This document shows, piece after piece, positions 1-14,566 of a stretch of 64,000 nt of DNA. The notes below the pieces were generated by a model that searched no databases, was not told the DNA's origin, and saw only the letters and a list, made by a program, of their open reading frames with translations. Each line of letters starts with the position of its first letter. Position 1 is the first letter of the stretch. The stretch is from Escherichia phage vB_EcoM_G2248: sequence record MK327932.1; one strand, 5' to 3'. The translations under genes and the position numbers were made by a program.

Positions 1-1581
1 ACTACCAAAGAACTGATGGAAAAATGGTCCCCGCTGCTGGAAAACGAAAAACTGCCGGAAATCGCAACTGCGTCTAAGCAGAAACTGGTTGCTAAAATTC
101 TGGAATCTCAGGAAGCGGATTTTGCTGTAGACCCGATCTATAAAGATGAAAAAGTTGTTGAAGCATTTGGCGGCTTTATCACCGAAGCAGAAGTTGCTGG
201 CGACCACGGCTATGATGCATCCAAAATCGCCGCAGGTCAGACTACTGGTGCAATCACCAACGTAGGTCCGGCTGTTATCGGTATGGTTCGCCGTGCTATC
301 CCTAACCTGATCGCATTTGATATTTGTGGCGTTCAGCCGATGAGCACCCCGACTAGCCAGATCTTTGCAATCCGTTCTGTATACGGTGCTGATCCGCTTG
401 CTGTTGGTGCTAAAGAAGCATTCCATCCGATGTACTCTCCGAATGCATTCCATAGCTCTCTGGCTGCTAAAGGTGCAACTGTAGGTTCTCCGCTGGGTAC
501 GGCATTCCAGAAACTGGCTATGCAAAGTGCAATTCAGGCTGGCGATATCGTTCATCACACCTTCGCAGAAACTGGCATTGCATATCTGCAAAACGTTACC
601 GCAGAAGCAGTAACTCCGCAGAAAGCAGGGCAGGAAAGCGAAGATGAAGTAGTAATGAAACTGATGGAAGAATGTAAACTGGTCGAAATCGCTTTCGGTA
701 TGGCAACTTCCATCGCGGAAATTCAGGAAGGCTTTAACGGTTCTCAGAATAACCCGTGGGCTGAAATGTCAATGCGTATTGACAAACAGGTTGTTGAAGC
801 GAAATCTCGCCAACTGAAAGCCCGTTACTCTATCGAAGTTGCACAGGATCTGCGTGCTGTACACGGTATGGACGCTGACGCCGAACTGAATGCTATTCTG
901 GCTAACGAAGTTCTGCTTGAAATCAACCGTGAAATCGTTGATGTAATCAACTTTACCGCTCAGGTTGGTAAAACTGGTATGACTCAGACCGTTGGTTCTA
1001 AAGCTGGTGTATTTGACCTGCAAGACCCGATCGATACTCGCGGTGCTCGTTGGGCTGGTGAATCCTTCAAATCTCTGATCTACCAGATCGACAAAGAAGC
1101 TGCTGAAATCGCTCGTCAGACTGGTCGCGGTGCGGGTAACTTTGTTATCGCTTCCCGTAACGTTGTAAACATTCTGGCGTCTGCTGATCAGGGTATCAGT
1201 CTTGCTATGCAGGGTGCTGCAAAAGGTCTGAATACCGACACCACTAAAGCTGTTTTCGCTGGTGTTCTGGCTGGTAAGTACAAAGTATTCATCGACCAGT
1301 ATGCTCGTCAGGACTACTTCACCGTAGGTTACAAAGGCGACAACGAAATGGATGCTGGTATCTACTATGCTCCGTATGTTGCTCTGACTCCGCTGCGTGC
1401 AACTGACCCGCAGTCTTTCCATCCGGTTCTGGGCTTCAAGACTCGCTATGGCATCGGCATCAACCCGTTTGCTGACAGCAAATCCCAGGCGCCGTCCGCT
1501 CGCATCACCTCCGGTATGTTGAGCAAAGAAAGCGTAGGTAAAAACGCATACTTCCGCCGTGTATGGGTTAAAGGTTGCTAA
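1..1581 (+). CDS. 23: Major capsid protein gp23 (5' end outside window)
   Basis: Translation aligns along its length with T4 gp23 (e.g. RRAIPNLIAFDICGVQPM, GKNAYFRRV near C-terminus); reading frame is open from base 1, so the start lies upstream of the window. Confidence 0.95.
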   Translation, partial: TTKELMEKWSPLLENEKLPEIATASKQKLVAKILESQEADFAVDPIYKDEKVVEAFGGFITEAEVAGDHGYDASKIAAGQTTGAITNVGPAVIGMVRRAIPNLIAFDICGVQPMSTPTSQIFAIRSVYGADPLAVGAKEAFHPMYSPNAFHSSLAAKGATVGSPLGTAFQKLAMQSAIQAGDIVHHTFAETGIAYLQNVTAEAVTPQKAGQESEDEVVMKLMEECKLVEIAFGMATSIAEIQEGFNGSQNNPWAEMSMRIDKQVVEAKSRQLKARYSIEVAQDLRAVHGMDADAELNAILANEVLLEINREIVDVINFTAQVGKTGMTQTVGSKAGVFDLQDPIDTRGARWAGESFKSLIYQIDKEAAEIARQTGRGAGNFVIASRNVVNILASADQGISLAMQGAAKGLNTDTTKAVFAGVLAGKYKVFIDQYARQDYFTVGYKGDNEMDAGIYYAPYVALTPLRATDPQSFHPVLGFKTRYGIGINPFADSKSQAPSARITSGMLSKESVGKNAYFRRVWVKGC

Positions 1582-1743: not shown

Positions 1744-2052
1744 ATGCACACACTCATAAAGACCAAAACTCCAGCCGTTTCCGCACCCGTAAACTGTATT
1801 CATAGTTCTCACATGACCGTGCAAATGTCAGTTGAAGGGGTAAGGGAAGGGCAAAAAGTCATTGCGGAAGCCTTGTTAGAAGGTTCTCTAGATGGTAAAG
1901 GTTGGTTCACTATTTCAGAATTGAAAGCTGATGGTAATGAATATGCAACTGATGGTGGAGCGTTTGAAACATTATGGTCGTTTATTAGGGCAAATGTAAA
2001 ATCAGTATCTAATGATTCTACTGTAACGGTGTATCTTGCTAAACGGGGGTAA
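1744..2052 (+). CDS. Hypothetical late protein (102 aa)
   Basis: ORF with GGGGAG Shine-Dalgarno about 12 nt upstream of the ATG; downstream of a late promoter; no recognisable homology. Confidence 0.4.
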   Translation: MHTLIKTKTPAVSAPVNCIHSSHMTVQMSVEGVREGQKVIAEALLEGSLDGKGWFTISELKADGNEYATDGGAFETLWSFIRANVKSVSNDSTVTVYLAKRG

Positions 2053-2056
2053 TTAT

Positions 2057-3769
2057 ATGAAGCTAAATCCACAAGCTATCATTAGTGCTGGTTCCGTGAG
2101 TGGTGGTTGTTCTGGTGGTATTCAGATCGGGACTAACGTACCTAGCGGAATTAAAAATACCCATCGTTTCGAAAATGAAGAAGCGAGGGATACATATTTT
2201 ACCGAACATTTTCCAGAATTAGATAGACTAAAAACAATTATTGTTTGCGGTGCTAAACTTCAATTATGGACTGGTAATACAGCACAATCCCCGTATGATA
2301 ATTCTAAATGGGTCGATATGACCTGGGTGATTCAGGGCGAACAAGGTATTACTGGAGAGAAAGGCGAAAATGGACGTGGAATTGCTAGAATCGCAGCACA
2401 ATTATCTGACGATGATCGAAACTGGACTCTAGAAATTACATATACAGACTCAACGCAAGAATCTTTAGTATTTCCTGTTCCAGATGTATTAGCAAACTTC
2501 GTACAGCGTTTAAACGCAATCGAAGTAAAATGGACAACAACCAATCCAATCAACAATCTCGGGGTCGCTATATCACCCGGACGCTATCCGGTAGGTGATG
2601 CAACTTATGGAAAACCTCCAATGATGGCGAATAAGGGGTCCGCAGATGTATATGTCGTTGATGGTAGCGTTATTCAGGTGGTCCGTTCTGTTGATGGTGG
2701 CGTTTACACTCGTATCCGACACAATGGAGAATGGAGTGAATGGAACTCTCAAAACGATGGTGGAATTGGTGGCGGTGGTTTAACTGGTGATCAGGAAGCT
2801 ATGCTAACAAGTCTAAGCACTCGTTTACCGGAGACGTCACCAGAAATACTGGATTTAAACACTCTGACTAAACAAGGTCGCTTTTGTTATTTTGAAGGGA
2901 CCGCAAACCGTCCGAATGGAGCACAAGCACACGGTTCAGTAGACGTACATTCGTGTAAAAACTATGTGTTACAGATTGCAACCAGTGTAGAAGGGGTAAT
3001 GTATCATCGCTCATACACAAAGAAAACTGATTCATGGTCCGAATGGACACAGATCAGCGATCATACTGGAGGGGCGACAATATATGAGTTCCCTCGTGTG
3101 TCTAGTGTGTTCACGACCGCACAAAGTTTAATCGAGGCAACAACACCGGGTACTGGAGGCGGGGCATTTTATATTCCGTGGAAATATGTCATTCATGATA
3201 ACTATGGGTGTACACCACGGATATCAGAGCCAGTTAGACAGAACGATGCCGATCATTGGTGGGTGTGTCCGAAATATGGAAGTTATGACATGGAATTGAT
3301 TTTTGATGTTGGTTTTATTAAAACACCACAAACAATTCCTCCTATCTTTACAATCACGGTATGGCATCGATTAACCGACGGTCGAGAACAACAAGCAGCA
3401 CGTTATCAGATTGGATTAGATGTATCACAAAAAAACCAAACATCAAAATCGCTAAAATTGAGAATGACTCACATTACATCGGGAGAGATGTTCCGGTGGC
3501 ATGTTTCATTTAATGGTGGTAGTTGGTCGGCAAGCGATAACCCAGATGTTTCCCTTGTACCATTCCGAACATTGCTGATGGTCGATGAAGTGGAACACGA
3601 TTCAGCAAAACGAATTGGTTCGTTAGCATACAACACATGGGCGAATTTTCAAGCTAGAAAAGGTCTGGCGGCGACTGTAAGTGAAGACGAATTAAAAAAA
3701 GCTCGTCTTAATGCCGTTAAATGGAGCGCATCAATCGAAAGTGTTGATGCATCTCAGGACGACCAATAA
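2057..3769 (+). CDS. Hypothetical late protein (~570 aa) with short collagen-like G-X-Y stretch
   Basis: Long ORF; ATG at 2057 preceded by GGGGG RBS; contains GEQGITGEKGENGRG (five consecutive G-X-Y triplets) and Gly-rich tracts; no T4 counterpart at this position. Confidence 0.55.
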   Translation: MKLNPQAIISAGSVSGGCSGGIQIGTNVPSGIKNTHRFENEEARDTYFTEHFPELDRLKTIIVCGAKLQLWTGNTAQSPYDNSKWVDMTWVIQGEQGITGEKGENGRGIARIAAQLSDDDRNWTLEITYTDSTQESLVFPVPDVLANFVQRLNAIEVKWTTTNPINNLGVAISPGRYPVGDATYGKPPMMANKGSADVYVVDGSVIQVVRSVDGGVYTRIRHNGEWSEWNSQNDGGIGGGGLTGDQEAMLTSLSTRLPETSPEILDLNTLTKQGRFCYFEGTANRPNGAQAHGSVDVHSCKNYVLQIATSVEGVMYHRSYTKKTDSWSEWTQISDHTGGATIYEFPRVSSVFTTAQSLIEATTPGTGGGAFYIPWKYVIHDNYGCTPRISEPVRQNDADHWWVCPKYGSYDMELIFDVGFIKTPQTIPPIFTITVWHRLTDGREQQAARYQIGLDVSQKNQTSKSLKLRMTHITSGEMFRWHVSFNGGSWSASDNPDVSLVPFRTLLMVDEVEHDSAKRIGSLAYNTWANFQARKGLAATVSEDELKKARLNAVKWSASIESVDASQDDQ

Positions 3770-3786
3770 TTAGCGGGGGGTGATTG

Positions 3787-4716
3787 ATGACTGACATTAA
3801 GGCAAAAATTAGCCAGTTGCAAACTGATTTTGTTCAAGGCGAGATCACACATTTCACCGGAAACGAATCAAATGCTCTAATGGAAAGTGATGTTGAAAGA
3901 ATTTCAAATTCAATCAACACTCAATTAATTGATCCTGTAATTGATTTTGTTATTGCTTGTGATGAAGTAATAGCAGAAACAGCAAGCGAGGCACATCAAG
4001 CGGCAGAAGTAGCAAAAAATACTGCTGACGTGGCAGACCGAACGGCAGGTCAATCCATGAGTATGGCAACTGATGCAATTGCTAAAGCTACTACCGCTGA
4101 ATCAGAAGCAACACGAGCACACACCCGATTAGATGAACTGAATATTCCAACAATGCCTAATCTTGATAACCAGACATGGAACTGGCTATCAAGATCTTTT
4201 GATAGTGTCAGTATTAGAGTTGGTAATGGTGTAACATTAGCTGACTCTAATACTAAACCACATATCACATGGACACCAATTCGCCAAAACTTTGAAACAG
4301 GTAGCTATTACGTTGAAGGACGTTTTGAAGCTCGTTTTAAAGTAATGGTTCGAGATTGGATTCAGGGCGAAGGTGGTAATATTGTTTATCTGGCAGGAAT
4401 TGATAGTTTAGCGTCATTTAACGGTTGGATTTATCTGGATGGTTTATCATCTACGGATACGATGAAAACAACCAATATTCAGATTAACGCATACACACAA
4501 AAAGACTCGCAAGTAGTATTTGGCGCTAGTGCTGTTGCGTCTATGTCAGATTCAACAAAAGTTAAAATGGCGTTATTCGTAAACGTAGGAACAGATAGAT
4601 TTGATCAATATACAGATCCGGTCTATGTCGACCTTGTTATGACATTCCAGCGTGACGCTAGCGGTAATTTTGGTTTTGGTACGTTGTTCCCAGAATTAAC
4701 CCCATCTTCTTCATAA
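3787..4716 (+). CDS. Hypothetical late protein (~309 aa), N-terminal helical/coiled-coil-like
   Basis: ATG at 3787 preceded by GCGGGGGG RBS; N-terminal Ala/Glu/Thr-rich heptad-like region; no recognisable homology. Confidence 0.5.
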   Translation: MTDIKAKISQLQTDFVQGEITHFTGNESNALMESDVERISNSINTQLIDPVIDFVIACDEVIAETASEAHQAAEVAKNTADVADRTAGQSMSMATDAIAKATTAESEATRAHTRLDELNIPTMPNLDNQTWNWLSRSFDSVSIRVGNGVTLADSNTKPHITWTPIRQNFETGSYYVEGRFEARFKVMVRDWIQGEGGNIVYLAGIDSLASFNGWIYLDGLSSTDTMKTTNIQINAYTQKDSQVVFGASAVASMSDSTKVKMALFVNVGTDRFDQYTDPVYVDLVMTFQRDASGNFGFGTLFPELTPSSS

Positions 4717-4726
4717 GGAGGAAGGC

Positions 4727-4879
4727 ATGAGTAAGAAAGAAAACGGCTATGTTATGACTCGTAAGGAATACGACGAATTGATGTTAGCATTAGCGTATGC
4801 GATTATTCGTTCTGATCATGCAATTAATCTGGTGCACAAAGTCAATCGTAGTGTTGATAATGTTGCTAGGAAGAAGTAA
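4727..4879 (+). CDS. Small hypothetical protein (50 aa)
   Basis: ATG 7 nt after a strong AGGAGGAAGG RBS; ends just before a terminator hairpin; below the 60-aa ORF-track cut-off. Confidence 0.35.
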   Translation: MSKKENGYVMTRKEYDELMLALAYAIIRSDHAINLVHKVNRSVDNVARKK

Positions 4880-4888
4880 TTTTATTTT

Positions 4889-4916
4889 GGGAATCCTTCG
4901 GGATTCCCTTTTCTTT
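4889..4916 (+). terminator. Rho-independent terminator
   Basis: GGGAATCC-TTCG-GGATTCCC followed by a T-run. Confidence 0.65.
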
Positions 4917-4919
4917 TTG

Positions 4920-4927
4920 TATAAATA
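4920..4927 (+). promoter_or_regulatory. T4-type late promoter (TATAAATA) for gene 24
   Basis: Exact TATAAATA about 38 nt upstream of the gp24 ATG at 4965. Confidence 0.65.
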
Positions 4928-4964
4928 TGATATATCCATTAAGGCAAATACAGGATTCATAAAC

Positions 4965-6206
4965 ATGACTCATATTTTTACTGAACTGTTGCGGGAATCT
5001 ACTTCCTCAGTAGCTAACCAGACAGCGCGACCGCAACTATTATCACTGACTCGCGCGGTAAACAACCTGATTTTCTCTGATCTGGTGGCAATCCAACCAA
5101 CCGATCAACCAGTATCTGCATTGTACGGCCTACGTTATCTTAATCATGATGGTCAGATGACGTTCCGGACCGCTGCAACCTATGGCGGTGCTGTTGGTGA
5201 TCGTTCTGATATTGAAGAATTTTCACAAGAAAAATCCTATGATGTAGGAGCAAAATTTAAATCAGGCGATGTTGTATACGAAGTTGTAACCGCTGGTACA
5301 GTAGGTGCAGATGCAGCCACGCCCGAAGCCGCAATTTTTAAAGGTGTGATGACAAATCAGATTCGCTTCTATAGCGACTGTGCACCTGTAGAATACTTTG
5401 AAGATAAAAACACAGAGATCTCATCAACGTCAATGCAGTTTGATAAGTGGCAGGTTAATGTAGGTTCTCGTAAATTGAAAACCTCGTTCACCACTGAATT
5501 AATGCAGGATCTTGAAGCAAGCCAAATCAACTCTGAAAACTCTGTAATTGATCTTCTGGCTACTGTCGCTTCCGAAGAGATCAACAAAGATATTATACAG
5601 AAGTTGATCACTGTATCAACTCGCTATAAAATTAAAGGGATCACCCCTGATGGCGTACTTTCTCTAGTTAGCGTTCAGGACGCACCAAAACAAGCTCGCG
5701 AACTTTACCGCTATGCTTGCGAAATGAGCAATCAAATGTTGCGTACTTCCTCCTTTGCTGGCACATACGTTTTGGCGTCTTCTCGCGTGGTTGGTCTCCT
5801 GCAATCTACCGGATGGATGGAAGAAACCGACAATGCTCTAAGCGAAGGCCGTCTACGCTGTGGTCTGGAAGTGTACGCAGATACGGTAACTCCGTTTGAT
5901 TATATGGTCGTTGGCTGTAAACACATGATCGGTGATATGGAGAGTGTAGGTTCTCTTTTCTACTCCCCATACACAGAAGCCGATGGCGCTGGCGCATATA
6001 AGAGCGTAATCGATCCTAACAGCTTCCAACACCATGTAGCTATTATGAATCGTTATTCACTCTCTGTCAACCCATACACAGCAAAAGTTGACCAAGAAGA
6101 ACACCAGGTCATCAAGGGTGACGAGTGGGCTAAACTTGCTGGACGTTCAGAAATGTCCTACATTTTAGGTATCGAACTGCCACCGCTTGAGATTGACAAC
6201 TCTTAA
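4965..6206 (+). CDS. 24: Capsid vertex protein gp24
   Basis: From MTHIFTELLRESTSS... the translation parallels the T4 gp24 N-terminus and is gp23-like in fold; the track's 4797 start is an upstream in-frame extension. Confidence 0.85.
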   Translation: MTHIFTELLRESTSSVANQTARPQLLSLTRAVNNLIFSDLVAIQPTDQPVSALYGLRYLNHDGQMTFRTAATYGGAVGDRSDIEEFSQEKSYDVGAKFKSGDVVYEVVTAGTVGADAATPEAAIFKGVMTNQIRFYSDCAPVEYFEDKNTEISSTSMQFDKWQVNVGSRKLKTSFTTELMQDLEASQINSENSVIDLLATVASEEINKDIIQKLITVSTRYKIKGITPDGVLSLVSVQDAPKQARELYRYACEMSNQMLRTSSFAGTYVLASSRVVGLLQSTGWMEETDNALSEGRLRCGLEVYADTVTPFDYMVVGCKHMIGDMESVGSLFYSPYTEADGAGAYKSVIDPNSFQHHVAIMNRYSLSVNPYTAKVDQEEHQVIKGDEWAKLAGRSEMSYILGIELPPLEIDNS

Positions 6207-6794
6207 CTAAATATCTAACCAAGACAAGTCAGATCCGCCCAAGATTTTTTCGACGGCGGATCTATTTTCTTGATGATATAAGTTAAAACATGGTATCCCA
6301 TGTCTACGGGCAACATAAACAGCAATTCGAGTTCCGCCCGAAACAATACCATTAACTTCTTTCGCCCAAAATAACACACAATCTACAGGATCATCAAGTG
6401 TCTCACCTAAGACTTGAGCAACATTTCTAGAAAACAGATTTTGCATGTATAGCGGTATAGAACGAGGATTATCATAAACGTGTTCTAATTCATCCATCGC
6501 CAGATTCTTTTGCTCTAGAGTCTGCCACGCAATCACATCACGACCATTATGCTTATGATCGTAAAACTTCCAATTTGGAATGAAAATTTTTCTATAATCT
6601 GGGTCGTAATACTTCATGAAAGCATTGTCCATACCGTAAGCCCCTCCAGAATGCGCTACAACGCGATTTTCTGACAATACCCTCCCAATGGCACTAGCCA
6701 TTATCAAAATGTCGTTAGGCGCTTTTCTAGAGCCTATAAGAGCACATCTACGAAGTGGTTTTACTCCAAATAGATCTTGTAACTGGTCAAACAT
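6207..6794 (-). CDS. DprA/Smf-like (SLOG-type Rossmann) protein
   Basis: Motif pattern ALIGSRKAP...A..GR.L......VAHSGGAYGMD resembles the DprA/Smf core (GSR ... SGGA.G.D); ATG at 6794 with GGAGG RBS. Confidence 0.45.
   Translation of the reverse strand: MFDQLQDLFGVKPLRRCALIGSRKAPNDILIMASAIGRVLSENRVVAHSGGAYGMDNAFMKYYDPDYRKIFIPNWKFYDHKHNGRDVIAWQTLEQKNLAMDELEHVYDNPRSIPLYMQNLFSRNVAQVLGETLDDPVDCVLFWAKEVNGIVSGGTRIAVYVARRHGIPCFNLYHQENRSAVEKILGGSDLSWLDI
6231..6270 (+). terminator. Hairpin terminator after gene 24
   Basis: AGATCCGCC...GGCGGATCT inverted repeat followed by a T-rich tract; it overlaps the 3' end of the convergent minus-strand ORF. Confidence 0.5.
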
Positions 6795-7175
6795 AATATT
6801 TTCCTCCATAGAAAGCAGTATCATATTACAAGTTAATAACAAATACAAGTATCCGCGTAGCGGAAGCGAGCACAGCGAGCATTAAAACACTTCCAGTAAC
6901 TGATTAATAAATGTTCGAAACAAATTTTTATTATTCTATAAGATAAGTCTTCGTTTTGTTCATAATTTAATCATACATGTAAAAACTACACAAAAAGGAT
7001 ATCGCTTCGCGAACTCCTACGGAGTATAACATTTGTGTTACAATATGTAGTGATTAATAATTAACCAAAGATACATTTTCTATGTTCTAAAGATCTTTCT
7101 TCGTTTTGGTCACAATTTAATCAAACAGTATTAATATTGTCCACATGTAAACTAAATCATGATGATTTGTGGATA

Positions 7176-7201
7176 CAAAAAAGCCGCCCCGAAGGACGGC
7201 T
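7176..7201 (-). terminator. Rho-independent terminator (minus strand)
   Basis: On the minus strand: TAGCCGTCCTTCGGGGCGGC followed by TTTTTT, immediately downstream of the ORF ending at 7210. Confidence 0.6.
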
Positions 7202-7209
7202 AATGTTAA

Positions 7210-7647
7210 TTATTTGTTGATAACGATCTGATTTCGGCGAATGGTAACATTGCTCTTAGAGATGATCAGATCATCCGGCACTACGTTCGTTTTGTATGGC
7301 TGGAAGCGAACAAGCATCTGATTGCGTTTAGAACCTTCCTTAATCTTGATTTCCATCTGGATATTGTTGCCTACGTGAGCAATAGCAATTTGACCTTTGT
7401 TCTCATAGACCCACTTGCTGGTAACGTCGCCAGCGAAAGCCTTAATAACTTGCAATGCTTCGTCGTATGCAGTAGAGCTATGAACGTTCAGAAGACCAGC
7501 CGTCGCCAGACGTGAGCAAGTGATCGCTGGAGATTGCCAAACATCAACATTGATTTGCTCAATCAGAGCAACACCGCCATGATCAACTGCTTTGAATGCT
7601 TCAAACATTGCTTTTTTCATTGCTACGTGGTTTTTACGGAATTTCAT
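7210..7647 (-). CDS. Hypothetical protein (145 aa)
   Basis: ORF followed by its own terminator; no recognisable homology. Confidence 0.5.
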   Translation of the reverse strand: MKFRKNHVAMKKAMFEAFKAVDHGGVALIEQINVDVWQSPAITCSRLATAGLLNVHSSTAYDEALQVIKAFAGDVTSKWVYENKGQIAIAHVGNNIQMEIKIKEGSKRNQMLVRFQPYKTNVVPDDLIISKSNVTIRRNQIVINK

Positions 7648-7693
7648 AATTAGTCACCTCTATTGATTAGTTATTCAGAATATTAATTACAAA

Positions 7694-7972
7694 TCAGGAC
7701 ATTGCCCGTTTGAATGCGTCCATTATAACAGTGTTTTTCGGCTTGTCAACACGTTTTTGAACTTTATTTTTAATTTTTTTGTTGATGTGGTGTTTACGAT
7801 AAACAACCTTTTCACGGTTGGCGTAAGCCTCGCGTGCATCTTTCACCATCAACCATGCCTTAGCCGCATCTTGTCCGCTGATCCCGCCAATCTTCTTAGC
7901 AATATCAACAAAATTAAGACCGTGGTCTTCTCGTAGCATGTAAACCATTAACGCTGTTTTCCTGTCCATCAC
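7694..7972 (-). CDS. Small putative helix-turn-helix DNA-binding protein (92 aa)
   Basis: Segment LNFVDIAKKIGGISGQDAAKAW resembles an HTH; basic C-terminal tail; ATGA start/stop overlap with the upstream gene. Confidence 0.4.
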   Translation of the reverse strand: MMDRKTALMVYMLREDHGLNFVDIAKKIGGISGQDAAKAWLMVKDAREAYANREKVVYRKHHINKKIKNKVQKRVDKPKNTVIMDAFKRAMS

Positions 7973-8166
7973 TTCGCCTCATTGACGATTAACAGGATAG
8001 TGATCAGTACCGGAAACTGGATCATGACAGTACCAAAAAACCGGATAAACGCATTTTCTGACTTCCACACATTACATGCTGCTAGCTGATAGCACAATGT
8101 TGCAACCAGAGCAAGAATATACACAGAAAGTGGTGTAACTTCGATCAGTCGGGAAATCTCATTCAT
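7969..8166 (-). CDS. Small membrane protein (65 aa, two predicted TM helices)
   Basis: Two hydrophobic stretches (VYILALVATLCYQLAA and VMIQFPVLITILLIV). Confidence 0.4.
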   Translation of the reverse strand: MNEISRLIEVTPLSVYILALVATLCYQLAACNVWKSENAFIRFFGTVMIQFPVLITILLIVNEAK

Positions 8167-8289
8167 ACTTCACCTCATACATTCATAAACACAACAACGA
8201 ATAGAACAGTAACAGTTATTAAAGCCATTTTCAACCCCATATTCATAATATTTTCTTCGCCTCACTATGACAGTAGCATGTCGATGCGT

Positions 8290-8320
8290 GCCATTATAGG
8301 CATCTAAATCGCTCTGTCAA
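8290..8320 (-). promoter_or_regulatory. Sigma70-type early promoter (minus strand)
   Basis: On the minus strand: TTGACA, 16-nt spacer, TATAAT, upstream of the small membrane-protein gene. Confidence 0.5.
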
Positions 8321-8331
8321 GCGCAAAAAAA

Positions 8332-8358
8332 CAAAAAAGCCACCCCGAAGGATGGCTT
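8332..8358 (-). terminator. Rho-independent terminator (minus strand)
   Basis: AGCCACCCC-GAAG-GATGGCT hairpin with a T-run on the minus strand, downstream of the Hoc-like gene. Confidence 0.6.
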
Positions 8359-8363
8359 AATGG

Positions 8364-9593
8364 TTAAAGTGGCGGAGCTTCGCGTATACGAAGAACTCTT
8401 TCTAGTGTCTCTCGATCTAAGTGATGGAATTTGCTTGCATTGTAGCTATAACCATTTCTGGATTCCATACAAATACAATCGCCGTATTTTTCCTCTGCTG
8501 CCGCGATCGTCTCCAGGTCTTTGGCATATCGACTACGGGAATATACTTCTCTGTGTCTCCATTCTAAGTTTAACTCATTGAATTTAACAATCTCGTCAAA
8601 TACCCACCAGCCAATATAGATAAACGACGTTCTACGCCACGGAAGCGGATGGACATAACGGAACATAGTATGAAGAGACTCGACTATGTTCATCTGGCAT
8701 TTGGTACTGATTACAAATCCTACCTCAACACGAGTTCCGTCAATGGTTTGAAAGAGTTTAGCTATACACCAGAAAGTAGCATGATCGTCCTGTGTCGCTC
8801 TTTCTTTGTATAGTGTGCCGTTAGGTAAAATTGAAAATCCCTCTGATATCTCTCCTATGGTGTTTCCTAATAATACCTTATCTTGTCCTTCTCGTTGTAG
8901 ATACCAGTTGTATTGGATGGATAGCGGTGGCATATCGCTATTATCGCCTACAATGTCCTCTGACACAAAATACTGCAATATGATTGGATAACCTATTGCT
9001 ACGGTGTTATCTGCGTTCACATCGCGATCTACGCTCATTTTAGCGAGCATTACCTTAGAAGATGTTTTGTCGATTGAGTTTTCCGATTCACCCCAGACCG
9101 AGACAGTATACACCCCGTTATCGTCATCGCTAAATTCGTGTATTGTTAATGTGTCGCTTGTGTTGTCTAATACTCGACCGTCTTTCTCCCAGCGATAATG
9201 GAGAGTATATGTGTCTGACGGTGATTTTCCTGTGGAGTAACTAACCGTTGTTCGTAGGTCAACATCGGTTTTTGTCTGTACATAGAAATGAGTAGGTTCT
9301 GTTATTTTTACAACTAGTTCGGCCTCATCCATCCGCACCGCGTTACTGGTTGCTTCGTCTCCTGTGTCGGTATCGCGCACGGTTACTTTGTAAGACCCTG
9401 CATTTTCACTTGTTGCGTCAGAAATAGTTAACGTGTTAGTGTCGCCTTCTTGCGATTTATCGTCTTTTGTCCATGTATATGTTAGATTGCTTGGTGCAGG
9501 GTCATCCCCAGAATCCAAAGTCACCGTTAATGTGAACGTGTCACCAGCGAGAAAACATCTTTTATCCGATTTTAATTTAACGGTAAATGCCAT
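8364..9593 (-). CDS. hoc: Hoc-like capsid decoration protein (409 aa)
   Basis: Ig-like beta-rich repeats (e.g. GSYKVTVRDTDTGDE, GVYTVSVWGESENS) plus a C-terminal domain shared with the next ORF (RYVHPLPWRRTSFIYIGWWVFDEI); position matches T4 hoc. Confidence 0.7.
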   Translation of the reverse strand: MAFTVKLKSDKRCFLAGDTFTLTVTLDSGDDPAPSNLTYTWTKDDKSQEGDTNTLTISDATSENAGSYKVTVRDTDTGDEATSNAVRMDEAELVVKITEPTHFYVQTKTDVDLRTTVSYSTGKSPSDTYTLHYRWEKDGRVLDNTSDTLTIHEFSDDDNGVYTVSVWGESENSIDKTSSKVMLAKMSVDRDVNADNTVAIGYPIILQYFVSEDIVGDNSDMPPLSIQYNWYLQREGQDKVLLGNTIGEISEGFSILPNGTLYKERATQDDHATFWCIAKLFQTIDGTRVEVGFVISTKCQMNIVESLHTMFRYVHPLPWRRTSFIYIGWWVFDEIVKFNELNLEWRHREVYSRSRYAKDLETIAAAEEKYGDCICMESRNGYSYNASKFHHLDRETLERVLRIREAPPL

Positions 9594-9610
9594 ATAATAC
9601 TACTCCATAT

Positions 9611-9638
9611 AACAAAGACCGACCCGAAGGCCGGTCTA
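9611..9638 (-). terminator. Rho-independent terminator (minus strand)
   Basis: GACCGACCC-GAAG-GCCGGTC hairpin with flanking T-run on the minus strand, after the 846-aa ORF. Confidence 0.6.
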
Positions 9639-9644
9639 ACTATT

Positions 9645-12185
9645 TTAAAATAACTGTGTTCCGTCAACCAGATAACCGTTACGAGATTCAAGTACATGCG
9701 TATTGCTGTAATGATGCAGCGATGCCGCGATAGTCTCGATCTCATCTGGATATTTGGTATGCTCAAAATCTTCCAGCCAGTTTAATCCAGATTTAAGGCA
9801 TCGTTCGATCTCATCCATGACCCAATACCCTTGATATTGGAACGAGGTACGACGCCACGGGATGGGATGCACATAACGTTTAAGTGTCGCTTTAGTAAAC
9901 ACAATGCGAACTTTTTCTGTGTGTGCAACATGGCCTTCGTCGTCCTTGACGACCGCGTAATATGTTGCTTCATGGTTCTCTTTAGTCAACTCACCATGAG
10001 GGATAGTCAAAACTTTTTGAGTTGCCCCAGGAATTGTTTTGTCTATGCCTCCTTTGACTTTATGCCACTGCCAACTAACTACTTTATCATCATCGACGTG
10101 TTCAGCGTGCGCTTCCAGCTTAACGTCTTGCTCTTGACCTTCTTTTGCCACAACATCAACCGGATGTTTGATAATGTTGATGTTTTGATGTGGAGCCATA
10201 GTGATTTCTGCCGGATTAGTTTCTACAGTTGTTTCTGCGGCTGTAATAACGGCAGTATAACGACCTACGTCAGAAGGTTTAACATGCTCGATGATAAGAG
10301 TTTCCGAGTTTTCCCCTGGAATAATAACACCATCTTTTTTCCACTGATAAGTTGGTTTTATGCCAATCGTATTAGTGGCTTGAGCGTGTAAAATAACTCT
10401 CTGGTTGAGGTTGACGTGAGCATCTTGCGGATGTATTGTAATTCGAGTATCGTTTTCAACAATCGACGGATCGTCGGTAATGATAACCCTTGCCGGATTG
10501 GTCATTTGCGATACACGATGTTCACCAAAACCCGCTGATACACGGCAGGTGTATACACCAGATGACGTTATCTGAGCGTGATCTTCACCATAAGAATTTC
10601 GTTGTTCGACACCAGCCGGGAAAAGATCTTTACCGTCTTTAAACCAGCGATAACGAACAGGTAGCGCATCATTCGAGGTTGCCTCAACTGAGATGGTCCA
10701 TACTCCACCAGAACGAACACTAATAGCGTGTGGCTGTTTAGTGATGTTCATAGTGGATTTGGTGGCGTCTACAGAAACCTGAACTTCATTGGAATCTTTA
10801 ACGATGCGATGATTCGAGATACCCATAGAAACCACGCATTTATAACGACCCTCGTCGGCTTTAGTGATAGCAGAAAAATGTAATGAATCCGAAGTTTTAT
10901 TTGGGATCAACTCATTATCCTTATACCACTGATAATCTAATTTGAAATGTTCATAATTAGACGTTGCTCGACAAGTAAGAGTTTGAGATGAACTCACACG
11001 AACGTTATTGATCGGCTGTGGTTGTTGGGTGATCGTGATCACCGGAGATGACCCGACCAGAAGTGTTGCTACCTCTGATTCGGTGATCTGATTATTTCCA
11101 TATGTAATTCGAGCTTTGAATTTAGCCTCATTAACATCATTGGTCGCCGGAATGATTTTTAACTCTTTTTCCGTTTCTCCAACGATAGGAGTAAATTCAC
11201 CTTCTTCTTTTTTCTGGCGTAGCCACTGTATTTTAACATTGGTGTAATTTGTTACATAATCAACACTTAGTACCGCTGGCGTTAATGCCGGAACATTAGT
11301 GTTTAATGGCTGTCGGGAAATTCGGAAATATGAACGTCCAGACACAACAACATTACAATCTTTAGAATAAACTACAGTACCCCCTTGACGAACTTCGAGA
11401 CGCCAGATCCCAGCATCGGCTTGTGTTACATACGGGATGATCATTGCTGTACCGTCTTGATCGATGATCTTTTTCCCGTTATGAATCCATGTGTACTCAA
11501 TATCACGAGTTGCATCATCGGACCTTACCGTAACTTCTAAATCCAAACGAGCATCTTCTAATACGGTGACAGTATCAGAATAATGTTCTTCGATGTGAAT
11601 TACTGGCGGTTTATCGTTTTCTTCCACAACAACCGGACTAATACGGTAATATGCTCGTGCGTCCTGGATAACAAATACTTTACAAGTATAATTGCCGAAG
11701 TCTTCACGAGATACCCTATCAACGTGTACGTTTTTAGCTTGTACTTTGTTGGGGTCAATCATAACATGATCTTTATACCAGATTGTATCAAATTGATAAC
11801 CGTCTTCGACAATCGGAGTGGCAAAAACATCAAGTGCTTCGCCAATTCGTTTGTAGATGTAAGTCGGAGATTGGTCTTGTGGTGCGATAAATGGAATACG
11901 CTCAACCAAAATCGGATCAATATCCACATAATCCAGTGGATTCTCTTTCAATTTGACACGCGCGGTATATGTGCCAAATTGTTCTTGAGTCAATTCGGCA
12001 ATGTACAGAGATTGGTCTGGTTCTGCAACTTGATCCGCTGGCACACTCTGACCGTTTAGCTTCCATTCTACGATATAGTCTTTAAAATCTGATGTACTTA
12101 CTACCAATTTAAGAACAAGTTCATGTCCCACTGATGCGTGGACAGGACCAGTAGTTTGATGTAAAATATTGATTTTATCAGACAT
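9645..12185 (-). CDS. Giant Hoc-like protein (846 aa) with multiple Ig-like domains
   Basis: Repeated ~90-aa Ig-like modules (conserved W...Y.C/Y.V patterns, e.g. GRYKCVV, GVYTCRV, GNYTCKV) and a C-terminal domain paralogous to the neighbouring Hoc-like gene (RYVHPIPWRRTSFQYQGYWVMDEI). Confidence 0.7.
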   Translation of the reverse strand: MSDKINILHQTTGPVHASVGHELVLKLVVSTSDFKDYIVEWKLNGQSVPADQVAEPDQSLYIAELTQEQFGTYTARVKLKENPLDYVDIDPILVERIPFIAPQDQSPTYIYKRIGEALDVFATPIVEDGYQFDTIWYKDHVMIDPNKVQAKNVHVDRVSREDFGNYTCKVFVIQDARAYYRISPVVVEENDKPPVIHIEEHYSDTVTVLEDARLDLEVTVRSDDATRDIEYTWIHNGKKIIDQDGTAMIIPYVTQADAGIWRLEVRQGGTVVYSKDCNVVVSGRSYFRISRQPLNTNVPALTPAVLSVDYVTNYTNVKIQWLRQKKEEGEFTPIVGETEKELKIIPATNDVNEAKFKARITYGNNQITESEVATLLVGSSPVITITQQPQPINNVRVSSSQTLTCRATSNYEHFKLDYQWYKDNELIPNKTSDSLHFSAITKADEGRYKCVVSMGISNHRIVKDSNEVQVSVDATKSTMNITKQPHAISVRSGGVWTISVEATSNDALPVRYRWFKDGKDLFPAGVEQRNSYGEDHAQITSSGVYTCRVSAGFGEHRVSQMTNPARVIITDDPSIVENDTRITIHPQDAHVNLNQRVILHAQATNTIGIKPTYQWKKDGVIIPGENSETLIIEHVKPSDVGRYTAVITAAETTVETNPAEITMAPHQNINIIKHPVDVVAKEGQEQDVKLEAHAEHVDDDKVVSWQWHKVKGGIDKTIPGATQKVLTIPHGELTKENHEATYYAVVKDDEGHVAHTEKVRIVFTKATLKRYVHPIPWRRTSFQYQGYWVMDEIERCLKSGLNWLEDFEHTKYPDEIETIAASLHHYSNTHVLESRNGYLVDGTQLF

Positions 12186-12264
12186 GTTATATCCTCTTTT
12201 TAATTGTATAACGGAACTACAATTAAAATCATAACAAATATTTCACAACTTTCATCACCCAAAA

Positions 12265-12993
12265 TTACTTGAGTGTGTGAAATTGGCTATGTTTGGTTTC
12301 CCGTACCTTGACAGACCCATCACGTTTGATATAATAGATCAGTGACTTGAGGGTGTCGTGTACATACGCGTGAGGGAAACGCTCTGGATACTTCTTCCAA
12401 TCTGGAGTATTAACGATCCAGTCGAAAATCCACCACGGGCATGAGTAGTAACCACGACCGCCACCGATCAAACAAATGGTTGGACGGAAACCAGTAAGAT
12501 CGCAAAATGAATCAGTATCATGTGCAGGAGAACGATGCTCTGCTTCGTCAGAGAAAATGTTTGCTACCGGAGATTCCACTTTAACTTCCGGTACAACCAC
12601 AATTTCAACTGGTACTGTGTGTGGTTCGGCTTCTTCTACAACTGTAACTGTAATTGTAATTGGTTCTTCTTTTTGTTCTGGTTCTTTCATTGCTTCAACC
12701 AGAGACGGATCAACTTCGTCGAATACCACTTTATCATCTGCGGTATCTGCTGCCAGAATAAGGTCGTTAATGCTGGTTCCCTCTTCCTGGGTTTCTTCTT
12801 CCATTTCGGATGCCAGTTTAGTTAATTCTGTTTCTACGAACTCGATCATGTTCTCTAGTGATAGCGTCTTTTTGACCTTGATGTCAAATTGTTTTGCGTA
12901 GTCCGCTAATTCTGTTTTAGCGGCTTTCTGTGCTTCTTTGTCGTCGGACGCCGCAATAGCGCGGAGTTCTTCGAAATATTCTTTATCAAACAT
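12265..12993 (-). CDS. inh: Inh-like protein (possible prohead protease inhibitor)
   Basis: Assignment is by position only (T4 order hoc-inh-uvsW); acidic Glu/Pro/Val-rich central region; no motif confirmation. Confidence 0.35.
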   Translation of the reverse strand: MFDKEYFEELRAIAASDDKEAQKAAKTELADYAKQFDIKVKKTLSLENMIEFVETELTKLASEMEEETQEEGTSINDLILAADTADDKVVFDEVDPSLVEAMKEPEQKEEPITITVTVVEEAEPHTVPVEIVVVPEVKVESPVANIFSDEAEHRSPAHDTDSFCDLTGFRPTICLIGGGRGYYSCPWWIFDWIVNTPDWKKYPERFPHAYVHDTLKSLIYYIKRDGSVKVRETKHSQFHTLK

Positions 12994-13019
12994 GTTATTC
13001 TCCTGATTGGGGGTGTTTG

Positions 13020-13027
13020 TATAAATA
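13020..13027 (+). promoter_or_regulatory. T4-type late promoter (TATAAATA) for uvsW
   Basis: Exact TATAAATA about 37 nt upstream of the uvsW ATG. Confidence 0.6.
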
Positions 13028-13063
13028 TTTGTATACTGTATTTATTGAGTGAGGCTATTCGCT

Positions 13064-14566
13064 ATGCAAGATATTAAAATTCACTTTCTGAACTACTCCC
13101 ATGTTCAAATTGAATGTAGTGATTCAATTTTATTAGAAATGCGAGATTATTTTAGTTTTGAAGTCGAGGGAGCGCGGTTTCAAAAAAGATTTAAGTATGG
13201 CGGTTGGGATGGGCGTATTCGTCTTTTAGACTACAACGGAAAGTTGCCTATCGGCCTAACTAAAACCGTTGGTATCTTCGCTAAAAATATGGGTTATTCT
13301 GTATGGGTAGATCCTCGCTTATTCGAAAAAGAACAGGTTACAGAAGAAGAGATCACAAAATGGTGTAACGACTTAGAATTATATTCCGGTGCTAACAGGA
13401 TCACCCCGCACTGGTATCAATCAAAGGCTGTCTTTGAAGGTATTCATCATAAACGCCGTATGTTAGTTTTGCCTACGTCCGCTGGTAAATCTGCGATTGC
13501 TTGTATGTTGTCTCGTTGGTACTTAGAGAACTACGAAGGGAAAGTGCTGATCATCGTTCCTACCACGTCGCTAGTGCTGCAAATGCGTGATGATTTTGTT
13601 GATTATCGCCAGTTTCCGTATGAAGCAATTCATACTATCATGAGCGGTACTAGTAAACACGTAGGTGATCGCCTGATCGTTGTTAGTACGTGGCAATCAG
13701 CATGTAAACAGCCGAGTGAATGGTTCCAGCAATTTGGGATGGTTATTGTTGATGAATGTCACAAGGCCACTGCTAAAAACCTGCTAAACATCGTTACTGA
13801 TATGGATCATTGCCAGTTTAAGATCGGTATGACTGGTTCCCCTCGTGACGGGAAAGCTAACATGATGCAGTATGTCGGTCTTTTCGGTGATATTTCTAAG
13901 ATCGTGAGTATTGACCGCCTGATGGAAGAAGGTCAAGTGACGAAACTGAAAATCAACTGTCTTTTCCTTCGTTATACCGATGAGGAATGTAGCGCGGTTA
14001 AGGGTAGAGAATATGCGGAAGAGATCAAGTATATTACGTCTAACCCACGACGTAATAAGTTTGCTTGTAATTTGGCGCTAAAACTCGCTAAGAAGGGCGA
14101 AAACGTATTCCTGATGTTCCGCAATACTAAGCACGGAAAACTTATGTATGACGCGTTACAGAAGGTACACGACAAGGTTTATTATATTGACGGTGGAGTT
14201 AAGACAGAAGAACGTGATGAATTTAAGAAATTAGCGGAAGGGGAAACAGGGATCATTTGTGTTGCTTCCTATGGTGTTTTCTCTACTGGTGTTTCAATTA
14301 AGAATTTGCACCATGTTATTTTCGGTCATCCCGTGAAGGAATCAACTATCGTTCGTCAGAGTATCGGTCGTGCATTGCGTAAACATGGTTCGAAAGACAT
14401 TGCAACGGTCTGGGATCTTATCGATCATTTGGCAGTTAAGACAAAGAGCAAGAATGCTAAGAAACAGTTTAGTCACCTTAATTATGCTCTTAAACATGCC
14501 CTGGAAAGAATAAAAATTTACAACACAGATCGATTCGAATATGTAACGAAAACTATAGAGATTTAA
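13064..14566 (+). CDS. uvsW: UvsW DNA/RNA helicase
   Basis: MQDIKIHF... aligns with the T4 UvsW N-terminus; helicase motifs LPTSAGKS (Walker A), DECH, GSPRDGKANMMQYVGLFG; ATG at 13064 with GAGTGAGG RBS. Confidence 0.9.
   Translation: MQDIKIHFLNYSHVQIECSDSILLEMRDYFSFEVEGARFQKRFKYGGWDGRIRLLDYNGKLPIGLTKTVGIFAKNMGYSVWVDPRLFEKEQVTEEEITKWCNDLELYSGANRITPHWYQSKAVFEGIHHKRRMLVLPTSAGKSAIACMLSRWYLENYEGKVLIIVPTTSLVLQMRDDFVDYRQFPYEAIHTIMSGTSKHVGDRLIVVSTWQSACKQPSEWFQQFGMVIVDECHKATAKNLLNIVTDMDHCQFKIGMTGSPRDGKANMMQYVGLFGDISKIVSIDRLMEEGQVTKLKINCLFLRYTDEECSAVKGREYAEEIKYITSNPRRNKFACNLALKLAKKGENVFLMFRNTKHGKLMYDALQKVHDKVYYIDGGVKTEERDEFKKLAEGETGIICVASYGVFSTGVSIKNLHHVIFGHPVKESTIVRQSIGRALRKHGSKDIATVWDLIDHLAVKTKSKNAKKQFSHLNYALKHALERIKIYNTDRFEYVTKTIEI

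What the first reader, a model, noticed from the sequence alone, without database searches (positions are those of the whole stretch)
8364..12185. Tandem Hoc paralogs, one with an expanded Ig-like domain array
Two adjacent minus-strand genes share a C-terminal capsid-binding-type domain (R-Y-V-H-P-[LI]-P-W-R-R-T-S-F...W-V-[FM]-D-E-I) but differ in their N-terminal Ig-like arrays: 409 aa versus 846 aa, the latter with roughly seven or more Ig-like modules, where T4 Hoc has three. Both could compete for the same hexon-centre site, giving a mixed or much longer capsid fibre layer. Each gene has its own terminator.
Basis: partly seen in the sequence, partly recalled or inferred. Interest (0 to 1): 0.55.

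Follow-up and report, generated by a model that had tools for sequence, protein, structure and literature searches.

The report
Two tandem Hoc capsid-fibre genes
This RB49-like (Krischvirus) phage carries two neighbouring genes for Hoc-type head-decoration fibres, a short one with 3 Ig-like domains and a long one with 8; this arrangement is already known from other T4-like phages, and RB49 itself once had it and lost the long gene by deletion.

Summary
Window 8364-9593(-) encodes a 409-aa Hoc (HocS), 65% identical to RB49 Hoc, whose three Ig domains are solved (PDB 3SHS). Window 9645-12185(-) encodes an 846-aa paralog (HocL) with eight Ig-like domains.

Both end in a domain that aligns with the T4 Hoc capsid-binding domain (E about 1e-9 to 1e-10). 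The published gp23-contact residues are kept. The Hoc-binding loop of gp23 in this window is 17/19 identical to T4.

The kind is known. Fokine et al. 2023 describe long and short Hoc pairs in phages Muldoon and PG7. Five deposited Krischviruses carry the same pair, and JK32 annotates both genes as Hoc.

New here:
- 53 of 58 deposited Krischvirus records, RB49 included, keep a frameshifted remnant of hocL with one shared junction. The pair is therefore ancestral and its loss is derived.
- The two-gene cassette is a divergent island (55-75% nt identity against 92-99% in the flanks) under purifying selection.
- hocL co-occurs perfectly with a fibre-like two-gene block between genes 23 and 24.

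Whether both proteins share one capsid is inferred, not shown. I rate it a new member of a known kind, of moderate-to-low interest.

The parts
8364..9593 (-). hocS: 409-aa Hoc (46.7 kDa, pI 4.83), ortholog of RB49 Hoc
   Evidence: ORF. 65% aa identity to RB49 Hoc. PDB 3SHS E=6e-116. phrog_1149 E=3e-59. pI.
8682..9593 (-). hocS Ig-like domains 1-3 (residues 1-304)
   Evidence: Aligns end to end with the RB49 Hoc three-domain crystal structure 3SHS. Pfam Ig_3, Ig_2 and V-set.
8367..8681 (-). hocS C-terminal capsid-binding domain (residues 305-409)
   Evidence: Residues 311-385 align with T4 Hoc 291-363, i-E 1.8e-9. dN/dS 0.03-0.12.
9645..12185 (-). hocL: 846-aa long Hoc paralog (95.7 kDa, pI 5.60)
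   Evidence: ORF. Orthologs of 841-847 aa in 5 deposited phages and 13 metagenomic clusters. phrog_1149 E=1e-46. pI.
9894..12185 (-). hocL array of eight Ig-like domains (approx. residues 1-98, 99-192, 193-284, 285-379, 380-475, 476-577, 578-665, 666-764)
   Evidence: AF2 model m50ec6e928aac. Pfam Ig_3 with 6 stretches, Ig_2, I-set. Domain-to-domain Z-scores: L5/L6/L7 are mutually related, L7 matches S1 and S2, L8 matches S3. Foldseek best matches are multi-Ig arrays.
9648..9893 (-). hocL C-terminal capsid-binding domain (residues 765-846)
   Evidence: Residues 740-844 align with T4 Hoc 264-366, i-E 4.1e-10. 90% mean pairwise identity among 14 orthologs against 59-74% for the Ig domains. dN/dS 0.02-0.16.
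9616..9637 (-). GC hairpin with TTCG loop between hocL and hocS (weak terminator or mRNA 3' stabiliser)
   Evidence: RNA fold -16.6 kcal/mol. The stem sequence differs but pairing is kept in JK32, SSG23, UPWr_E1, L006 and L007. It is eroded in RB49.
8337..8358 (-). Intrinsic terminator-like hairpin plus T-run after hocS
   Evidence: Conserved in RB49, JK32, SSG23, UPWr_E1 and L007.
12192..12197 (-). Shine-Dalgarno AGAGGA of hocL, 6 nt before the ATG
   Evidence: Read directly from the sequence.
9603..9606 (-). Shine-Dalgarno GGAG of hocS, 9 nt before the ATG
   Evidence: Read directly from the sequence.
9757..12153 (-). Segment of hocL (codons ~12-809) that is missing from RB49-type genomes
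   Evidence: blastn of window against RB49: 7000-9756 and 12154-14000 align, with 4 bp between them in RB49. Junction sequences.
8100..12050 (.). Divergent hoc cassette: 55-75% nt identity to JK32, SSG23 and UPWr_E1 against 92-99% in the flanks
   Evidence: Sliding identity on a MAFFT alignment. Synonymous sites are saturated.
12265..12993 (-). inh (prohead protease inhibitor), immediately upstream; probably co-transcribed with hocL and hocS
   Evidence: phrog_1051 E=7e-76. In L006, hocL starts 12 nt after inh. No TATAAATA on the minus strand directly before either hoc gene.
994..1050 (+). gp23 residues 327-345, equivalent to the T4 gp23 Gly326-Arg344 loop that forms the Hoc-binding site
   Evidence: phmmer alignment to T4 gp23: 17/19 identical, with Asp336, Pro337 and Arg344 kept. 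Site defined in PMC10385173.
2036..4716 (+). Co-occurring accessory block between genes 23 and 24: a fibre-like 570/577-aa protein and a 310-aa coiled-coil protein. It belongs to the same presence/absence pattern as hocL; a functional link is unproven.
   Evidence: Present only in the five hocL-bearing deposited phages and in L006 and L007. Out-of-frame remnants in Phi1. AF2 plus Foldseek: pyocin, phi812 and P68 fibre proteins and a TNF/C1q-like head.

Best explanation
The locus holds two functional paralogs of the T4-type head decoration protein Hoc, in the order inh-hocL-hocS. The order suggests a late operon, but that is inferred. Each protein is a monomeric string of Ig-like domains: 3 in HocS and 8 in HocL. 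Each is anchored by a homologous ~80-aa C-terminal domain that docks at the centre of an expanded gp23* hexamer, one molecule per hexamer. Because the site takes only one Hoc, the two proteins must share the ~155 sites of a T4-like prolate head. The result would be a mosaic coat of short fibres (about 18 nm, as in T4) and long fibres (about 40 nm if extended, taking 4.5 nm per domain). Shown here: paralogy, domain architecture, conservation of the capsid-contact residues and of the gp23 binding loop, purifying selection on every domain, and conservation of the tandem pair out to an outgroup phage. Inferred: that both are assembled on the same particle, their ratio, the fibre length, and what the fibres do (weak reversible adhesion to host or mucosal glycans, and dispersion, as proposed for T4 and RB49 Hoc). 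Evolution: HocL looks like a HocS-like core (D7-D8-CBD colinear with S2-S3-CBD) extended at the N-terminus by Ig-domain duplication. The pair is ancestral in Krischvirus, and RB49-type phages lost hocL through one shared deletion.
For: Homology of both C-termini to the T4 Hoc capsid-binding domain. The contact and conserved residues named in PMC10385173 are kept. The gp23 Hoc-binding loop is 17/19 identical to T4. RB49 Hoc binds T4 capsids in vitro, so binding works across genera (PMC10385173). HocS and HocL are colinear, E=3e-27, with domain Z-scores of 10 for L7-S2 and 8.2 for L8-S3. Eight Ig domains. dN/dS is 0.02-0.3 in all domains, and length stays at 841-847 aa in 18 orthologs. The order inh-hocL-hocS is kept in JK32, SSG23, UPWr_E1 and L007, and in L006 whose UvsW is only 72% identical. 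Both proteins are acidic, like other Hocs. RB49 keeps MSNKINVLHQT plus the out-of-frame last 37 codons of hocL. Phi1 keeps 34 N-terminal codons and has the same 3' junction. 53 of 58 records share that junction.
Against: There is no virion proteomics or imaging for any hocL-bearing phage in the papers I could search. The AF2 model is low-confidence in exactly the capsid-docking strands of the HocL C-domain (residues 771-786 and 831-846). Trp309 of T4 Hoc, a conserved gp23 contact, is Tyr or Phe in HocL, which could lower affinity. Most isolates have lost hocL, so it is dispensable at least on laboratory hosts. No canonical late promoter lies directly upstream of either gene.
Confidence: 0.65

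Rival explanations
1. Only one paralog decorates the capsid to any real extent. HocS occupies nearly all hexamer centres, and HocL is a minor or conditional component, or has another role such as a free adhesin or decoy.
For: HocL has Tyr or Phe in place of the conserved contact Trp309. hocL has been lost without visible harm in 53 of 58 deposited records. The papers on these phages report no longer capsid fibres, although JK32's head dimensions (114 x 83 nm) were measured by negative stain.
Against: The HocL capsid-binding domain is its most conserved part (90% mean identity; dN/dS 0.02-0.16). That is hard to explain if it did not bind capsids. hocL is the upstream gene, has the stronger Shine-Dalgarno, and lies before the internal hairpin. 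Across the deep split to L006, HocL (59%) is better conserved than HocS (48%).
Confidence: 0.2
2. The two paralogs do not compete but partition. Their C-domains prefer different classes of gp23* hexamers (for example vertex-proximal, cap or mid-section hexamers, which depart from six-fold symmetry), giving a patterned coat.
For: In T4, Hoc binds vertex-proximal hexamers in two preferred orientations because those hexamers are distorted (PMC10385173). The two C-domains here are only 44% identical, and HocS has a 24-residue C-terminal extension that HocL lacks.
Against: All residues named as contacts are shared apart from Trp309. There is only one gp23 gene and one gp24 gene in the window. No data point to site selectivity.
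Confidence: 0.1
3. hocL is a decaying or accidental ORF (a duplicated gene on its way to loss) with no function in this phage.
For: Relatives did lose it by deletion.
Against: The reading frame is intact at 841-847 aa in 18 lineages whose synonymous sites are saturated. dN/dS is 0.02-0.3 in every domain. The Shine-Dalgarno, start codon and hairpin are conserved.
Confidence: 0.03

Closest known systems
RB49 Hoc (PDB 3SHS; three N-terminal Ig domains), the single Hoc of the Krischvirus type phage
   Same: HocS is its positional ortholog. It sits between the 65-aa ORF and inh, has a similar length (409 vs 404 aa), is 65% identical, has three Ig domains plus the capsid-binding domain, and is followed by the same terminator.
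   Different: In RB49 it is the only intact Hoc. Upstream of it lies a ~260-bp frameshifted remnant of hocL, annotated as hypothetical ORF RB49p168.2. At nucleotide level the window allele is far more diverged (~65-75%) than the flanking genes; UvsW is 100% identical at protein level.
T4 Hoc (376 aa; capsid-bound C-domain modelled in PDB 5VF3, 8T1X, 8T9R; Fokine et al. 2023, PMC10385173)
   Same: Ig string plus C-terminal capsid-binding domain. Tyr293, His295, Arg300, Trp310, Asp313, the ESRNG loop and Tyr360 are conserved. Acidic pI. Gene sits next to inh and uvsW.
   Different: Only ~37-39% identity in the C-domain, and the Ig domains are barely alignable. T4 has one hoc gene. HocL has 8 Ig domains rather than 3.
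Long and short Hoc pairs in Serratia phage Muldoon (1174 aa with 10 Ig; 314 aa with 2 Ig) and Enterobacter phage PG7 (Fokine et al. 2023, PMC10385173)
   Same: One genome encodes two proteins with the Hoc capsid-binding domain and different N-terminal payloads, one of them a much longer Ig string.
   Different: Different genera and different domain numbers (8 and 3 here). In PG7 the second protein has the binding domain at its N-terminus and carries a GDSL lipase. I did not examine gene order in those phages.
Orthologous hocL-hocS pairs in deposited Krischviruses JK32, SSG23, SFHK24, Brandy(49) and UPWr_E1
   Same: Same order inh-hocL(846/847 aa)-hocS(408-410 aa), same intergenic hairpin, same flanks. 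JK32 annotates both as 'Hoc head outer capsid protein'.
   Different: The window alleles are only 64-71% (HocL) and 61-68% (HocS) identical to them. They form a third deep allele of the cassette. The nearest relative is a metagenomic protein at 96% (P0001).
Slopekvirus hoc_2/hoc_1 (Klebsiella phage PSKm2DI: 353 aa followed by 91 aa)
   Same: Two adjacent genes that both match the Hoc C-domain, near uvsW.
   Different: The second gene there is a short, essentially domain-only protein, not a long Ig array.
Ig-array proteins of Felixounavirus phages (PDB 9NCF_S 'Immunoglobulin-like domain protein'; 9C2D_S 'tail protein'; phrog_3995)
   Same: HocL domains 5-7 are ~29% identical to their repeated Ig domains (E=6e-22 and 4e-16; phrog_3995 E=2e-54).
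   Different: The match covers Ig domains only. Those proteins do not match the Hoc C-terminal capsid-binding domain.

Membership tests
Hoc (T4-type highly immunogenic outer capsid protein): HocS | C-terminal capsid-binding domain homologous to T4 Hoc 281-376, with the conserved Tyr293, His295, Arg300, Trp309, Trp310, Asp313 and the Glu-Ser-Arg-Asn-Gly loop | tested here: met
   phmmer against PDB: residues 311-385 align with T4 Hoc 291-363, i-E 1.8e-9. All listed residues are identical (YVHPLPWRRTSFIYIGWWVFDEI ... ESRNGY).
Hoc (T4-type highly immunogenic outer capsid protein): HocS | N-terminal string of Ig-like domains | tested here: met
   Residues 1-304 align with the RB49 Hoc 3-domain crystal structure, E=6e-116. 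Pfam Ig_3, Ig_2 and V-set are above cut-off.
Hoc (T4-type highly immunogenic outer capsid protein): HocL | C-terminal capsid-binding domain homologous to T4 Hoc 281-376, with the conserved contact residues | tested here: met
   Residues 740-844 align with T4 Hoc 264-366, i-E 4.1e-10. Tyr, His, Arg, Trp310, Asp and ESRNG-Tyr are invariant in 14 orthologs. The Trp309 position is Tyr or Phe. phrog_1149, 14282, 11091 and 21694 all hit.
Hoc (T4-type highly immunogenic outer capsid protein): HocL | N-terminal string of Ig-like domains | tested here: met
   Eight beta-sandwich domains in the AF2 model, pLDDT 80.9. Pfam Ig_3 E=1e-40, Ig_2 and I-set. Foldseek finds 8-Ig DSCAM, contactin and titin.
Hoc (both paralogs) | Gene located in the head-gene region next to inh and uvsW, as in T4 and RB49 | tested here: met
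   Order is 23 ... 24 ... hocS, hocL, inh (minus strand), then uvsW.
Hoc (both paralogs) | Binds as a monomer at the centre of expanded gp23* hexamers, one per hexamer, and is present in virions | not testable with these tools
   Indirect support only: the gp23 Gly326-Arg344 loop is 17/19 identical to T4, and RB49 Hoc binds T4 capsids in vitro (PMC10385173).
Hoc (both paralogs) | Acidic protein (pI ~4-5 reported for Hoc homologs) | tested here: inconclusive
   HocS pI is 4.83 and fits. HocL pI is 5.60 overall, with its three N-terminal domains at 4.7-5.0 and D4-D6 near neutral (6.2-7.0).
Phages with two Hoc-like proteins (Muldoon/PG7 type, Fokine et al. 2023) | Two separate genes in one genome, each carrying the Hoc capsid-binding domain with a different payload | tested here: met
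   There are exactly two capsid-binding-domain copies in the window, 44% identical. In the phage collection the domain query gave 1576 places in 1329 records, so a second copy is common, although in Krischvirus many second places are the hocL remnant.

The most novel reading that the evidence does not exclude
HocL and the co-retained fibre-like gene pair between genes 23 and 24 (a collagen-like stalk, two knob domains and a TNF/C1q-like head) may together form an accessory surface-adhesion layer of ancestral Krischviruses. RB49-type phages lost both by deletion. This layer may account for the unexplained, O-antigen-independent broad host range of Brandy49. Of the four RB49-like phages compared by Efimov et al. 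2022, Brandy49 is the only one that keeps both modules.
Probability: 0.1. Interest if true: 0.65.

Novelty: new member of a known kind. Interest (0 to 1): 0.35.

Why it matters
What Hoc does is still debated: mucus adherence, host-surface tethering, dispersion or pH sensing. This locus does not add a new principle, since long and short Hoc pairs are already published. It does give a convenient natural experiment. Within one genus, at ~95% genome identity, some phages carry the long 8-Ig Hoc and others carry a precise deletion of it. RB49, the phage whose Hoc structure anchors the field, turns out to be a deletion derivative. Comparing or swapping the cassette between such phages could show directly what a longer capsid fibre contributes. 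The perfect co-occurrence with an unannotated fibre-like gene pair also gives a concrete candidate for host-range differences within RB49-like therapeutic phages.

Tried and rejected
- **Late promoters.** I searched for the T4 late promoter TATAAATA before each hoc gene. There is none on the minus strand in 8000-13100. Only one-mismatch sites lie upstream of inh. I therefore could not assign separate promoters and favour an inh-hocL-hocS transcript.
- **Repeat-driven variation.** I looked for diversity-generating or repeat-driven hypervariation. The only internal DNA repeat is the 71-nt core of the capsid-binding domain, at 70% identity. There is no template/variable repeat pair.
- **Positive selection.** dN/dS is at most ~0.4 in all domains, but dS is saturated, so episodic positive selection cannot be assessed. 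The divergence looks like old alleles exchanged by recombination rather than fast in-place evolution.
- **Pfam.** No Pfam model in this copy hits the C-terminal domain. Only Ig, PKD and related families match.
- **AF2 model of the HocL C-domain.** Confidence is too low in the docking strands for a structural comparison with T4 Hoc. The whole-model Foldseek search returned only generic Ig arrays.
- **Distinct clade between the two indels?** Checked whether hocL-bearing phages form a separate clade in the DNA between the two indels. They do not: the window is 92-98% identical to both RB49 and JK32 there.
- **The 577-aa and 310-aa proteins.** PDB sequence searches found nothing. Pfam found nothing significant.
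- **Papers on JK32, SSG23 and Brandy49.** None mentions Hoc or virion proteomics.


Full report
**What is there**

The window is a T4-like phage of the RB49 group (Krischvirus). The flanks of the finding match RB49-like genomes at 86-96% nucleotide identity, and the UvsW protein is 100% identical to that of RB49. One is 8364..9593 (409 aa), here called HocS. The other is 9645..12185 (846 aa), here called HocL. They are followed on the same strand by inh (12265..12993) and, divergently, by uvsW (13049..14566). This is the canonical hoc-inh-uvsW neighbourhood of RB49.

**Homology of the two proteins**

The two proteins are clearly related. BLASTP gives E=3e-27, with HocS 100-389 colinear with HocL 586-845. 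Their C-terminal ~80 residues are 44% identical, and no third copy exists in the 64 kb.

HocS is the ortholog of RB49 Hoc. It is 65% identical, and residues 1-304 align with the three-Ig crystal structure 3SHS at E=6e-116.

Both C-termini align with the capsid-binding domain of T4 Hoc (PDB 5VF3 chain Z and others), with i-Evalues of 1.8e-9 and 4.1e-10. Both also match several PHROG 'Hoc-like head decoration' profiles.

Fokine et al. 2023 (PMC10385173) list the T4 Hoc residues that contact gp23* or are conserved: Tyr293, His295, Arg300, Trp309, Trp310, Asp313, the Glu355-Gly359 loop and Tyr360. All are identical in HocS. All but Trp309 (Tyr or Phe) are invariant in HocL and 13 orthologs. The partner site, gp23 Gly326-Arg344, is 17/19 identical to T4 in the window's gene 23, and Asp336, Pro337 and Arg344 are kept.

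**Architecture**

An AlphaFold2 model of HocL was built from 14 orthologs (mean pLDDT 80.9). It shows eight beta-sandwich domains followed by a helix-containing C-domain. The docking strands of that C-domain are low-confidence. Eight 'W-x-K/H' C-strand motifs agree with the domain count. Foldseek returns eight-Ig DSCAM, contactins and titin.

Shuffle-based Z-scores show the relationships between domains:
- D5, D6 and D7 (and D2) are a recently related set.
- D7 resembles HocS D1 and D2.
- D8 resembles HocS D3.

HocL therefore looks like a HocS-like core (D7-D8-CBD) extended at the N-terminus by domain duplication. HocS is acidic (pI 4.83). HocL is mildly acidic (pI 5.60).

If HocL is extended at the ~4.5 nm per domain implied by the 18-nm, four-domain T4 Hoc, it would reach about 40 nm. 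This is an inference.

**Expression signals**

Each gene has a Shine-Dalgarno sequence: AGAGGA for hocL and GGAG for hocS. Each is followed by a GC hairpin with a TTCG loop.

The hairpin between the genes has only a short T tract. Its pairing is maintained by different stem sequences in six related loci, which argues that it is functional, either as a partial terminator or as a 3' stabiliser.

No TATAAATA late promoter lies before either gene. In one relative, hocL starts 12 nt after inh. I infer that the three genes are co-transcribed.

**Is the kind known?**

Yes.
- Fokine et al. 2023 report Hoc homologs with up to 10 Ig domains. They describe two-Hoc phages explicitly: Muldoon (1174 aa and 314 aa) and PG7.
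- Five deposited Krischviruses carry the same inh-hocL-hocS arrangement: JK32, SSG23, SFHK24, Brandy and UPWr_E1. JK32's annotators called both genes Hoc.
- Slopekviruses have adjacent hoc_2 and hoc_1 genes.
- The capsid-binding-domain query found 1576 places in 1329 phage records.
- The papers on JK32, SSG23 and Brandy49 do not mention Hoc or give virion proteomics.

1. **RB49 lost hocL by deletion.** RB49 lacks window 9757-12153. It keeps the hocL ribosome-binding site, the ATG and 11 codons (MSNKINVLHQT). These are fused out of frame to the last 37 codons (KYPDEI...NGYLVDDNQLF), which are annotated as hypothetical ORF RB49p168.2.
   - Phi1 keeps 34 N-terminal codons (its ORF168.1, equal to phrog_19377) and has the same 3' junction.
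   - RB49 has a further 75-bp deletion between CAGAA repeats.
   - 53 of 58 deposited records carry this junction. Only the five phages listed above keep the gene.
   - An outgroup contig (UvsW 72% identical) still has hocL (841 aa) followed by hocS (395 aa).
   - The pair is therefore ancestral, and the familiar single-Hoc state of RB49 is derived.

2. **The cassette is a divergent island.** Nucleotide identity to relatives is 55-75% from about 8100 to about 12050, against 92-99% on both sides.
   - Synonymous sites are saturated, while dN/dS stays between 0.02 and 0.3 in every domain. It is lowest in the capsid-binding domains.
   - This fits old, functional alleles exchanged by recombination. 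At least three deep alleles exist, and the two genes diverge together.

3. **hocL co-occurs with a second block.** The same five phages, the window and both metagenomic relatives keep a ~2.7-kb block between genes 23 and 24 (window 2036-4716). RB49-type phages lack it and hold frameshifted remnants of it.
   - The 570/577-aa product has a short collagen-like run.
   - Its model is of moderate confidence (pLDDT 62). It shows knob domains and a TNF/C1q-like C-terminal head, and it matches the R1 pyocin fibre and phi812 and P68 fibre proteins.
   - The DNA between the two indels does not separate hocL-bearing from hocL-less phages.
   - Among the four RB49-like phages compared by Efimov et al. 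2022, only Brandy49 keeps both modules. Brandy49 has the broadest host range and an 'as yet unidentified' way through O-antigen. It also has a divergent gp38, which confounds the comparison.

**Mechanism and rivals**

The best-supported reading (about 0.65) is that both proteins are capsid decoration fibres competing for the one-per-hexamer site, which would give a mixed short and long fibre coat. The rivals are:
- HocS predominates and HocL is minor or conditional (about 0.2).
- The paralogs partition between hexamer classes (about 0.1).
- hocL is non-functional (about 0.03, contradicted by the selection data).

None of these can be separated without virion proteomics, binding assays or cryo-EM.

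**Verdict**

It is a new, divergent member of a known kind. Interest is moderate to low (0.35). It is raised slightly by the demonstration that RB49-type phages are deletion derivatives, and by the co-lost fibre-like module.

Noticed in passing
window 2036-4716 (+), between gene 23 (16-1581) and gene 24 (4797-6206): A ~2.7-kb block encodes a 570/577-aa fibre-like protein and a 310-aa protein with an N-terminal coiled coil. The larger protein has a collagen-like GxxGxx run and two knob-like 'W.EW' repeats. Its AF2/Foldseek matches are the R1 pyocin fibre, phi812 and P68 fibre proteins, and a TNF/C1q-like head. The block is present only in the hocL-bearing Krischviruses. Out-of-frame remnants are left in Phi1. 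No Pfam or PDB sequence match.
   Followed up: partly
L001 (RB49) 4557-4754; L005 (Phi1) 1582-1746: The annotated 'hypothetical proteins' RB49p168.2 (65 aa, phrog_32100) and phi1p168.1 (54 aa, phrog_19377) are not genes in their own right. They are the C-terminal and N-terminal remnants of the deleted hocL.
   Followed up: yes
window 8293-8320 (-) and 12308-12335 (+): There are two perfect sigma-70 consensus promoters (TTGACA-16-TATAAT, 12/12). One lies just downstream of the hocS terminator and faces the 65-aa ORF; it is conserved in RB49, JK32, SSG23 and L007. The other lies inside the 3' end of inh on the antisense strand and points toward uvsW.
   Followed up: no
window 12600-12800 (inside inh): The central acidic linker of Inh drops to 72% nt identity against JK32, SSG23 and UPWr_E1, while the rest of the gene is 90-96% identical. 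This is a second small variable patch next to the hoc cassette.
   Followed up: no
window 12050-12185 (first ~45 codons of hocL): The 5' end of hocL is 89% identical to JK32 and SSG23, whereas the rest of the gene is 60-75% identical. The right-hand boundary of the divergent cassette therefore lies inside Ig domain 1. This may explain why D1 is the best-conserved Ig domain (74%).
   Followed up: partly
window 6207-6848 (-): A DprA-like DNA recombination-mediator ORF (phrog_768, E=1e-59) lies directly after gene 24 on the opposite strand.
   Followed up: no
L008 (Klebsiella phage PSKm2DI) 2950-4297: This Slopekvirus has a 353-aa Hoc followed by a 91-aa gene annotated hoc_1, which looks like little more than a capsid-binding domain. 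It may be a 'blank' plug for the Hoc site.
   Followed up: no
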